Positions 20,501 through 23,500 of a stretch of DNA of 64,000 bases are shown piece by piece. The position numbers were made by a program, and so were the translations under genes. The notes under the pieces are model-generated. The model was not told where the DNA came from. It did no database searches and saw nothing but the letters and a program-made list of their open reading frames with translations. This stretch comes from Tubiluchus corallicola (lineage: Eukaryota; Animalia; Priapulida). The number at the start of each line of letters is the position of its first letter. Positions within the stretch are counted from its first letter, which is position 1. The DNA is taken from contig JAQGDQ010000132.1 of NCBI GenBank assembly GCA_030141605.1, forward strand, positions 379,797 through 443,796, given 5' to 3'.

Positions 20501-23500
20501 ACGGTCACGAGACCATATGTACGTTAACTACATGTAGGTGAAACGGATGAAACACGTTGTTATTTTTGTTACATACTGCACGTGTATAGTTTTAAACTAA
20601 CAAGTTATTCTTATCCGAAAACAACTAGCAAAATAGCAGCAGCAATGCATGTAAAACAAAATAACTGAAGCGAAAATTAACGCCAAGAACTGTTACAAAT
20701 ACAACAGGATAGGCCTTGATGCGTTGTCAAATGTAAACAAATGCGTTATTCGGTTCAGATAGAGTTGATAGGTTCACTTAACCTCTGACCTTTTCACGAT
20801 TACCATCAATTGTTGGAACCGTCAAAAGGCTTATTACAAGAAGCCTCCGTTCATTATGTTTCTGTGGATTTCGCTCGCAAACTGGGCAAATCACGTTGAG
20901 TATCAGAGGTTTAGTGGATTCCTCCTACATACCCGGATTGGCAAATTAATCTTTTTTTGCTCTATTAACTTGTCCTTTTAATTCTTTGGTACTTTGTCAT
21001 ACTTTCTCTCCATGGATTAATTCAATGCGCCTGTGGTGATATTCGGGTTCAAGTCGCTTCCATAATTATTTGATCTTTAAAGAGTAAACTAATGGGGTAC
21101 CATGCATTTGAAATTACTGTTTTTGCTAGGATGTTGTACAGATGCCAGAATTCAAAGAGCCTGCTGAAAGTCCAGCAAGATTCAGTGCCTACAGGGATGC
21201 GGGTCCTAAATCTCAGTTTAGCGATATTTATACGCGGGATTGCCGAAGAAGTGGAACAGGTCTTTTCTCGAGATCTTTGCAGATGTACAAACAGCCTGGC
21301 AGAGTAGGCGAAGACGGGAAACCGATCGAGGATCTGCAACTTCCTCCTAATGTGGGTCAGCAAGTGAACATTATAGAAATGCCAATTCAGCCGTCACCTC
21401 CTAAAGGAGGGGCACTTTCTCCCAGTGCAGGTCAGCAAGTGAATATTATAGAAATGCCAATTCAGCCGTCACCTCCTAAAGGAGGGGCACCTTCTCCCAG
21501 TGCAGGTCAGCAAGTGAAAATTATAGAAATGCCAATTCAGCCGTCACCTCCTAAGGGGGCGGCAGTCGCCACATCTGGATATTCTGGAGGATCAAGAGAC
21601 AGCAGCCCATCAGGCCGGGGGCAATCCCCAGATCGATACTCATACACGAGTTCGAAAGGCCGTGCCACTTCCCCAGGTTTCTCTTCAGGCGCTGACGTTT
21701 CACCTGGGCGAGATTCACGGGATAGATATGATACGCATCACTACCATATGAAAGTTCCATCTCAGGAACCTCCAGTAGTCATTCCTGCAGGGACAACATG
21801 CGAAAAACCGTTTGGTTATCAGACATGTACAGCAGGCGTTGATCCGCCTAGAGGTCATTCTGACACTTATTTTTATGGGCAACAGCAATCGGAAAGTACT
21901 GAGGCTCAAAGGCACACTACAGCACCAGGAGGTACTTCTCAATACCCAACAATCCCACTGTATTCTCATTCTCATCTCCTTCCCGAATCGGCTGTTAAAT
22001 GCTTTGAAATTGAGAATTATAGTGGCATGGGCACTCGTACGTATAGTATTTCAGAAACTACACATTACACAATTACTGAAATACGCAGCGGGGATGATGC
22101 TGCGGTTGCTGCATTAGCTGAGGCTGCTGAACAATCTACTGCACAAAAACCGACAGATGGCGCTCCTTCTCAAAAAATAATTATCAGAGAATTCCCAGGG
22201 GAAAATGTTGCAGGTCCTTGTGCTGGCAGAGAAGGAGAAGAGCCAGCAACGTTCGTAGGAAAAACAAGAAAGGTTATCACCGAAACAATTAGTGCCACTC
22301 CCGGTGATGCAGCAGAAGGGACATATACTGGAGATTCAAAAAGTATTGTGATAGAAACTCCTGCTGTTAAGCTAGACCATATTGGTCAAGGTGTCTACTC
22401 CGGAGAGGCTTCGCCTACCATTGTAGAAACACCCAGTGCTAAGGACCAAAGTGTGGAAGAACCAAAGCATATTATTAAAGCAGCACAGAAAAAGAAGGTG
22501 GAAAGTACAAAAGAGGAAAGAATTAGTCCACAGGTAAGTCCAAAACCTAGTAGGAGAAGAGGAAAAGACAAAGAAGCTAAAGACGAGACCGTAGAAGCTA
22601 AGACAGAGGCTGATAAAGCTGCAGTTCAAGCTGCCCCTCCAGAAGTTCCCTCGGCTGAAAAGGCTACTGTTTCTCCTGTAGTTTCGGAGAAAGCTCCTCC
22701 ACCTGCAGTTGCCTCAGCTGAGAACGCTGCTATTTCTCCTGCAGTCTCTGAGAAAGCTCCTCCACCTGCAGTTCCCTCAATTGAGAAATCTGCTGCATCT
22801 AGAGAAGCGTCGCTTGCTGGCGAAACCGCTGCATCAGGAACATCTACGCCTCTTGGCGAAGCTAGTACTGCTGACGAAAGTACAACCAACATGCCACCAG
22901 GAAGCGCTTCTGACGTTAGTGAAGCTGTAGAAGAGAGTGAATCTCCGACAGAAAGTATAGGCGATGCAGATAAGAAAAATTCTAAATCAGCTGAATCAGT
23001 TTCTCAACACGGAGACTACATGATCTATGTGGCAGGTGGAGCAGATTCAGATGCTACTGGAAAGTAAGTATAATGCCTGTATTGTTATTTAACTTGTACT
23101 AACAACTGGCAAATTCTTAACTATGCACCACTATACGTTTTATTACAAGAAGCCAGTGTTTCATTCTACAAAAGCTACCTGAAGTTGCTTTAGAAATAAA
23201 AATAAAATAACTTTTCTTCAAATAGATAAGCCTTTCATAAGGAGGAAACATTGTACTGAGAGCAATATCCAAGTAACTTAACAATTATTCAGGAAAGAGA
23301 ATATCGTTTGTAAAAACAGTTGTAAAAATGTTAAAGAATCTAATGAAAAAATAATTTAAGGCAAAAGTGAACAAACGCCAAAGCATATTATTGCTCAGAT
23401 AAGTAGCGAGAACAAAGAAATATAGAAAAGCAAAGAATATGGAAAATTGACCGCCTCTTTTACCCTATTCTCGGGGCAAACCATTTTTGAAACATGGCAG

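What the first reader, a model, noticed from the sequence alone, without database searches (positions are those of the whole stretch)
21990..22430. Unnamed ~140-aa domain shared by the gene 2 insert and standalone gene 4
Seen: gene 2 VKCFEIENYSGMGTRTYSISETTHYTITE...SQKIIIRE...FVGKTRKVITE...AEGTYTGDSKSIVIETPAVKLDHIGQGVYSGEAS aligns with gene 4 (47758-48145) VRCFELENFIGSGTRTYSFSETTNYTITE...SQKIVIKA...YVSKTRKIITE...AEGTCTGDTRSVVIESPAVKLSPVGEGVYAGESS. Changes are conservative while the flanks are unalignable, which points to purifying selection. The blocks are T/I/V/Y-rich with Gly turns (beta-strand-like). I do not recognise any known family. Inference: a self-association or polymerisation module that would let gene 4 co-assemble with the BTB-Kelch protein.
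Basis: partly seen in the sequence, partly recalled or inferred. Interest (0 to 1): 0.85.

Follow-up and report, generated by a model that had tools for sequence, protein, structure and literature searches.

The report
Orphan module in split Kelch genes
An invertebrate BTB-Kelch gene and a neighbouring repeat-rich gene share a protein stretch of about 140 residues that matched no family searched and has been kept by selection in both copies; it likely serves as a binding module for a shared structural partner, left over from a partial gene duplication, but no fold, partner or expression has been shown.

Summary
The two segments are 53% identical (69 of 131 columns; BLASTP E 5e-33). Synonymous sites are saturated (pS 0.74) while pN is 0.30; neutral simulations at that third-position divergence give about 10-16% identity. 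The segment is four beta-prone blocks (about 89 residues) joined by linkers with pN close to pS, ending in a 23-residue internal repeat. It sits between BACK and Kelch in a predicted 1,215-residue gene 2. The Kelch-only gene 3 differs from gene 2 by nearly the same amount (55% identity, pN 0.26, pS 0.68), so genes 3 and 4 look like complementary partial copies of gene 2. No family or homologue was found and both structure predictions failed (pLDDT 38-40). Self-association is untested, and gene 4's 5' end is unresolved, so 'standalone' is unproven. Gene 2's BTB lacks the Cul3-binding phi-x-E motif, and gene 4 ends in 26 basic repeats with 17 RPASA motifs. That suggests a structural role analogous to sperm calicin and cylicin, by inference only. 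A real but lineage-restricted orphan module of modest interest.

The parts
21994..22431 (+). Shared segment, copy 1: four conserved beta-prone blocks with variable linkers, at about residues 562-701 of the predicted gene 2 protein (counted from the BTB exon)
47758..48147 (+). Shared segment, copy 2, near the start of the gene 4 frame
22312..22446 (+). Two tandem ~23-residue units (G-x-Y-x-G...[IV]-E-[TS]-P) forming the end of the segment; also visible, more weakly, in copy 2
   Evidence: z 8.8 (0 of 500 shuffles) in gene 2; z 3.6 (1 of 500) in gene 4; unit boundaries chosen by eye
18208..18946 (+). Gene 2 BTB-BACK exon; aligns to KLHL3 but has A-Y-P opposite the phi-x-E motif M83-S84-E85
19693..19774 (+). 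Predicted gene 2 micro-exon that joins the BACK exon (phase 2) to the insert exon (phase 0); a similar exon lies at 58298-58385 in gene 5
   Evidence: (2 of 500 shuffles)
21130..23063 (+). Gene 2 insert exon, 645 codons: low-complexity flanks, the shared segment, and the first Kelch strand at its 3' end
28549..35525 (+). Five further Kelch exons of gene 2, ending in a stop; the spliced model has 7 of 7 GT..AG introns and no internal stop
38835..44359 (+). Gene 3: Kelch propeller paralogous to gene 2's, same exon layout, no BTB exon and no shared segment found; first ATG at 39021, 5' end unresolved
47428..50091 (+). Gene 4 open frame (887 codons; first ATG at 47665): shared segment, K/E/D-rich stretch, repeats, stop; AATAAA at 50284; no BTB or Kelch; 5' end unresolved
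48877..50048 (+). 26 copies of a 45-base (15-residue) unit, 95% matches, holding 17 RPASA and 4 KPASA motifs

Best explanation
The segment is a lineage-restricted coding module under purifying selection in both genes, which likely arose once in the BACK-Kelch linker of gene 2, was likely copied into gene 4 by local partial duplication, and likely works as a set of short beta-strands that would fold on binding and dock both proteins onto one shared structural partner. Shown: the homology, the selection, the block-and-linker layout, the matching divergence of genes 3 and 4 from gene 2, and the missing phi-x-E motif in gene 2. Inferred: the direction of copying, that it binds anything, that the partner is a third protein, and that the setting is a cytoskeletal scaffold, possibly in sperm or cilia. 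In this reading gene 2 would bring a BTB dimer and a Kelch propeller to the site, and gene 4 would bring a long basic tail that could be phosphorylated.
For: Selection: pN 0.30 against pS 0.74. Neutral evolution to third-position identity 0.38-0.47 gives mean identity 0.10-0.16, at most 0.25, and 1 of 600 such runs keeps an open frame, against 0.53 observed. The blocks (pN 0.18) are at least as constrained as the gene 2/gene 3 propellers (pN 0.26), while the linkers have pN 0.55 and pS 0.58 and take gaps of 2-8 residues; the blocks were picked for conservation, so this contrast is partly circular. The segment is kept in gene 4 without BTB or Kelch, so its job does not need them in the same chain. 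Composition: identical columns are led by T, E, G, I, V; 2-4 Leu and no Trp; beta propensity 1.04 in blocks against 0.84 in linkers; FoldIndex 0.07-0.14 amid flanks at -0.01 to -0.48. A short motif of the type K/T-x-I-T-E recurs, with a further copy in gene 4 outside the segment. Shared origin: gene 2 vs gene 3 Kelch 160 of 290 identical (55%) against 30-42% for all other between-gene propeller pairs, matching 53% for the segment. Structural rather than ligase role: gene 2 lacks phi-x-E, whose Glu-to-Ala change severely disrupts KLHL3-Cul3 binding (PMC3616122, passages). Analogy: cylicin-1, a basic repeat protein, co-precipitates with itself and with calicin (PMC10994659, passages); calicin is listed as a kelch-family protein (PMC2138045, abstract and introduction).
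Against: No partner is identified and nothing here shows binding. Only two copies are known, so there is no deep alignment and the low-confidence models cannot tell a disordered module from a small folded domain. Synonymous sites are saturated, so equal age of genes 3 and 4 is only approximate, and the order (Kelch copy, then segment copy) does not fit one simple tandem duplication. The periodicity test did not show clean beta-amphipathicity: in two of three stretches the moment at 100 degrees exceeded that at 170 degrees. The sperm or cilium setting rests on analogy and on one short motif. Gene 4's repeat units vary by 17 amino-acid-changing and 5 silent alleles, about the neutral ratio, so the tail shows no sign of sequence-level selection.
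Confidence: 0.4

Rival explanations
1. Self-association: the beta-strands pair between copies, so gene 2 and gene 4 proteins co-assemble and, with BTB dimers, form a network or fibre.
For: T/I/V/Y-rich strands with Gly turns and an internal repeat; conservation without BTB or Kelch in gene 4; Drosophila Kelch oligomerises through its amino half (PMC2138045, abstract and section list); cylicin-1 binds itself and calicin (PMC10994659, passages).
Against: Both copies are net acidic (-0.07 and -0.03 per residue), and about a third of block residues differ between them (67% identity). Conservation alone does not single out self-binding.
Confidence: 0.25
2. Split-gene pair: the segment binds the Kelch propeller, within one chain in gene 2 and between chains for gene 4 and gene 3, as a built-in ligand or inhibitor.
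For: Genes 3 and 4 keep complementary parts of gene 2 at similar divergence. Kelch propellers bind extended, often acidic peptides (established knowledge, recalled).
Against: About 89 conserved residues is far more than a Kelch ligand needs (recalled: usually around ten residues). Genes 1, 3 and 5 have related propellers with no such segment in the window.
Confidence: 0.12
3. The segment is a small, autonomously folded beta domain with long insert-tolerant loops, of a fold the searches could not recognise.
For: FoldIndex slightly positive; block order and spacing conserved; the two-sequence model puts strands on blocks 1, 3 and 4, though at low confidence.
Against: Hydrophobic fraction is only 0.24-0.27 with almost no Leu or Trp; about 40% of the length is freely changing linker.
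Confidence: 0.15
4. Gene 4 is not a separate gene but an alternative terminal exon of the gene 2/gene 3 transcription unit, so the two copies are alternative versions within one gene. This concerns gene structure and is compatible with the binding readings.
For: The frame is open for 79 codons before the first ATG (chance about 0.005 at the intron stop rate). In-frame-compatible acceptors lie at 47482 (phase 1, score 4.6) and 47649 (phase 0, 3.9). A weak match to the start of gene 2's insert exon lies upstream of the ATG. Unchecked scan notes report variable-exon genes elsewhere in this genome.
Against: About 5% of all AG sites score 4.6 or more. Splicing would have to skip complete Kelch cassettes that have their own stops, with ATTAAA 55 bases after gene 3's stop. 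A TATATAAA lies near 47290.
Confidence: 0.2
5. A recent or neutral duplicate with no function, or an assembly artefact.
For: No relatives found outside the window.
Against: Saturated silent sites with 53% protein identity and two long open frames; the copies are only about 70% alike in DNA over 110 bases; contigs of run X1 cover both copies with 0-2 differing letters, although X1 may be the source sample.
Confidence: 0.03

Closest known systems
BTB-BACK-Kelch (KLHL) proteins, e.g. KLHL3 (PDB 4hxi) and Drosophila Kelch
   Same: Gene 2 has BTB (Pfam PF00651, E 4e-22), BACK (PF07707, E 8e-20) and Kelch repeats in that order; best solved relative KLHL3, E 8e-20.
   Different: A linker of about 630 residues between BACK and Kelch that carries the orphan segment; no phi-x-E motif at the aligned place; partial paralogues next door.
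Mammalian calicin (CCIN) and cylicins (CYLC1/2) of the sperm perinuclear theca
   Same: A Kelch-family protein paired with a basic, lysine-rich repeat protein (PMC2119631 abstract; PMC10684152 and PMC10994659 passages). Gene 4 has pI 9.67 and 23% K+R.
   Different: No sequence match; gene 4 has 0 KKD and 0 KKE and Pro-containing repeats; the papers seen do not describe a domain shared by calicin and cylicin; testis expression here is unknown. Analogy only.
Limulus scruin (sperm actin cross-linker with two Kelch-type domains)
   Same: Gene 1 of this cluster has at least three tandem propellers; scruin has two such domains (PMC2120335, abstract passage).
   Different: No scruin sequence was compared or returned (one search gave generic Kelch proteins); it bears on the neighbour, not on the shared segment.
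Lineage-specific tandem BTB-Kelch arrays (scan notes e1-9862251, e1-9877142; unchecked)
   Same: Local expansion of BTB-Kelch genes in an invertebrate.
   Different: Those are described as intronless with hypervariable propeller loops; here genes are multi-exon, partial, and under purifying selection in all exon sets tested.

Membership tests
BTB-BACK-Kelch protein (gene 2) | BTB, BACK and Kelch repeats in one reading frame | tested here: met
   Pfam hits; predicted spliced model with 7 of 7 GT..AG introns and no internal stop; splicing itself not observed
Cul3 substrate adaptor (gene 2) | phi-x-E motif in the BTB alpha3/beta4 loop | tested here: not met
   A-Y-P aligns with KLHL3 M83-S84-E85; gene 5 has L-R-E one position along. 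One pairwise alignment at low identity.
Cul3 substrate adaptor (gene 2) | Binds Cul3 and drives ubiquitylation | not testable with these tools
   Needs biochemistry
Any Pfam or NCBIfam family (shared segment) | Profile match above the curated cut-off | tested here: not met
   0 families at E <= 1 for both copies
Degenerate Kelch repeat (shared segment) | Profile similarity to Kelch blades, GG-Y-W signature | tested here: not met
   hhalign probability 0.2% against both local Kelch alignments; no Trp and no GG at the expected place; a 16-residue look-alike at E 0.12
Known beta fold (shared segment) | Confident model with a structural match | tested here: inconclusive
   Models too poor to search with
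Cylicin (gene 4) | KKD/KKE tripeptide repeats and pI above 10 | tested here: not met
   0 KKD, 0 KKE, pI 9.67; no Pfam hit for the whole frame
Cylicin-like sperm structural protein (gene 4) | Testis-restricted expression and sperm-head location | not testable with these tools
   No expression data could be examined
Self-associating or polymerising module | Homo- or hetero-oligomer formation | not tested
   No complex prediction was obtained

The most novel reading that the evidence does not exclude
One BTB-Kelch gene split by partial duplication into a Kelch-only protein and a basic repeat protein, both still tied to the parent through a new beta-zipper assembly module, giving an invertebrate an independently invented, kinase-regulated counterpart of the calicin-cylicin sperm-head scaffold.
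Probability: 0.1. Interest if true: 0.6.

Novelty: new variant of a known kind. Interest (0 to 1): 0.3.

Why it matters
It is a clean small example of a new conserved module arising in the normally short BACK-Kelch linker and being handed to a second protein by partial duplication. If it proves to be an assembly module, it would add a way for Kelch proteins to build structures without Cul3. As it stands it is known from two paralogues in one genome, which is a common situation in poorly sampled animal lineages, so its general importance is limited.

Tried and rejected
Homologue searches. Word-indexed search with copy 1 among 259-2000-residue proteins: 0 of 3399 candidates at E <= 0.01; shorter proteins were not searched with this tool. 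phmmer of copy 2 against 1.84 billion representatives: 4 hits at E 1e-6 to 9e-4, all repetitive T/G-rich proteins matching unrelated short stretches, rejected on inspection; copy 1 and the two-sequence profile were not run there. ESM Atlas: one hit at 0.78 for copy 2 and none for copy 1; this shows neither novelty nor absence. PDB sequences: best E 0.52, and none for the profile. Metagenome contigs: 0 of 133 and 0 of 599 pattern matches confirmed. Gene 2's BTB-BACK exon found 0 of 1320 candidates at E <= 1e-10 although KLHL3 matches it at E 7e-20, so that tool is weak for this family and its blanks mean little. A Kelch-exon profile returned 14 generic Kelch proteins and no orthologue, so the organism was not identified. 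No whole genome is held, so further copies elsewhere in this genome are unchecked. Structure: AlphaFold2 gave pLDDT 38.2 (single sequence) and 39.5 (two sequences); Foldseek best E 0.55, VIA-align best Z 4.2; uninformative. Complex prediction of copy 1 with copy 2: the queue was full and no job ran, so no verdict. Expression: no RNA holder listed. Run X1 behaves as DNA (contigs cross exon-intron borders) and its depth was not used; run X2 laid only short partial matches, none listed on either copy. Degenerate-Kelch idea rejected. No remnants of BTB-BACK exons upstream of genes 3 or 4. The idea that the donor at 22534 joins gene 3's first exon found no usable phase-0 acceptor (3 of 3 scores negative). 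One search had exon coordinates off by one and was discarded; one search replaces it. Papers: seven searches were on context, none could look for the segment itself, so I make no claim that it is absent from print; PMC9454703 gave only a reference-list line.

Full report
Setting. The window is intron-rich eukaryotic DNA of about 35% GC with a + strand cluster of Kelch genes; no whole genome is held. Pfam and a motif scan place the exons. Gene 1 ends near 13.7 kb and has at least three tandem propellers. Gene 2 runs BTB-BACK exon (18208-18946), micro-exon (19693-19774), a 645-codon insert exon (21130-23063) and five more Kelch exons to a stop at 35525; the predicted model is 1,215 residues from the BTB exon on, with 7 of 7 GT..AG introns and no internal stop. 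Gene 3 is a Kelch propeller with the same exon layout and no BTB. Gene 4 is one long frame (47428-50091). Gene 5 is another BTB-BACK gene with an unrelated insert that runs off the window. All models are predictions. The organism is unidentified; unchecked scan notes on the same genome suggest a non-arthropod invertebrate.

Observation. The match is real: 75 of 149 identical by BLASTP, E 5e-33; 69 of 131 aligned columns; score 303 with 0 of 500 shuffles reaching it, while upstream and downstream flanks score as chance. A profile of the pair finds only these two places among 2757 window ORFs. Contigs of public run X1 cover 21891-22547 and 47733-48849 with 0-2 differing letters each; X1 may be the source sample, so this argues against a local assembly error but is not independent support.

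Selection. Over 131 codons pN is 0.30 and pS 0.74; identity by codon position is 0.63, 0.74, 0.43; 0 of 2000 bootstraps give pN >= pS. The dN/dS of 0.13 is nominal because silent sites are saturated. Neutral simulations that bring third positions to 0.38-0.47 identity leave 10-16% mean protein identity (maximum 25%), and 1 of 600 keeps an open frame. The conservation lies in four blocks of about 89 residues (67% identity, pN 0.18); the 42 linker codons have pN 0.55 and pS 0.58. The blocks were chosen by eye for conservation, so that split is partly circular; the whole-segment figures are not.

Anatomy. The blocks are rich in T, I, E, S, G, V, with few Leu and no Trp; beta propensity is 1.04 against 0.84 in linkers, and the segment is marginally on the folded side of a charge-hydropathy index while its flanks are on the disordered side. 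A hydrophobic-moment test did not confirm regular beta alternation in two of three stretches. The last block is two tandem units of about 23 residues, and a short K/T-x-I-T-E-type motif recurs, once more in gene 4 beyond the segment. AlphaFold2 gave pLDDT 38-40, so fold searches are uninformative. No family or credible homologue was found; one search shows that one of these tools misses even the BTB domain's relatives, so the blanks are weak. A passing likeness to a Kelch strand failed profile tests.

Origin. Gene 2 and gene 3 propellers are 55% identical (160 of 290; pN 0.26, pS 0.68), whereas all other between-gene propeller pairs are 30-42%. The shared segment is 53% (pN 0.30, pS 0.74). Genes 3 and 4 therefore look like complementary partial copies of gene 2 of similar age: one kept the propeller, the other the segment, and neither has a detectable BTB exon. 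Gene 5's BTB-BACK is only 34% identical to gene 2's and its insert lacks the segment. This is inference: saturation blurs ages, and the gene order needs more than one event.

Is gene 4 standalone? Its 3' end is clear (stop, AATAAA at 50284). Its 5' end is not: the frame is open for 79 codons before the first ATG (chance about 0.005), moderate acceptors lie at 47482 and 47649, and a weak post hoc match to the start of gene 2's insert exon lies upstream of the ATG. Gene 3 likewise has 62 open codons before its ATG (about 0.015). Either may be spliced to unseen upstream exons or may keep eroded coding sequence.

Likely function. Because the segment stays under selection in gene 4 without BTB or Kelch, it most likely acts on another molecule. 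Short beta-prone blocks on flexible linkers inside disordered regions are typical of modules that fold on binding (established knowledge, recalled). I favour a shared third partner (0.4) over self-association (0.25), a stand-alone fold (0.15) and binding to the Kelch propeller (0.12); none was tested. Two context clues point to a structural role. Gene 2's BTB has A-Y-P where KLHL3 has the phi-x-E motif needed for Cul3 binding (PMC3616122, passages). Gene 4 ends in 26 basic 15-residue repeats with 17 RPASA motifs, which fit the CDKL5 consensus R-P-x-[S/T]-[A/G/P/S] quoted in a paper on flagellar substrates (PMC12711092, passages). Against over-reading the tail, variation among its units is at about the neutral ratio (17 changing, 5 silent).

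Comparison. The nearest analogy is mammalian calicin with cylicin: a kelch-family protein (PMC2138045, abstract and introduction) and a basic repeat protein (PMC2119631, abstract; PMC10684152, passages) that co-precipitate (PMC10994659, passages). Gene 4 fails cylicin's defining features (0 KKD, 0 KKE, pI 9.67), so it is at most cylicin-like. Limulus scruin (PMC2120335, abstract passage) is a loose parallel for gene 1. Gene 2 is a member of the BTB-BACK-Kelch family by domain content, but not shown to be a Cul3 adaptor.

Verdict. Observation confirmed; interpretation partly supported. The segment is a real, selected, so far unclassified module known from two paralogues in one genome. New variant of a known kind; interest 0.3.

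Noticed in passing
window 22531-22539: The only perfect CAG|GTAAGT donor in the whole window lies inside gene 2's insert exon, in phase 0, about 34 codons after the shared segment (0.009 expected in this exon). It may be an alternative donor; no matching acceptor was found.
   Followed up: partly
window 1-13748: Gene 1 has at least three tandem Kelch propellers, 63-69% identical, each last exon running through a linker into the next propeller's first strand; dN/dS about 0.24 between two of them. Scruin-like layout.
   Followed up: partly
window 53716-55038 and 56210-64000: Gene 5: BTB-BACK with L-R-E near the Cul3 motif, micro-exon, K/S/E-rich insert with 7-residue repeats (61778-61966), Kelch start; two coding-looking frames at 53716 and 54769 may be its first exons.
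   Followed up: partly
window 39532-40089 and 44594-45121: Two inverted copies (85% alike) of an interspersed element flank most of gene 3's Kelch exons; many X1 contigs match it, as expected of a repeat.
   Followed up: no
window 21355-21554 and 22644-22794: Short coding tandem repeats in gene 2's insert: 75 bases x 2.7 (97% matches) and 63 bases x 2.4.
   Followed up: no
window 24292-25224: A 930-base run of ACT, AAT and AAC triplets inside a gene 2 intron, producing spurious long frames.
   Followed up: no
window 35526-36678: No AATAAA or ATTAAA within 1.1 kb after gene 2's stop, unlike genes 1, 3 and 4 (signal scan); read-through towards gene 3 is possible.
   Followed up: no
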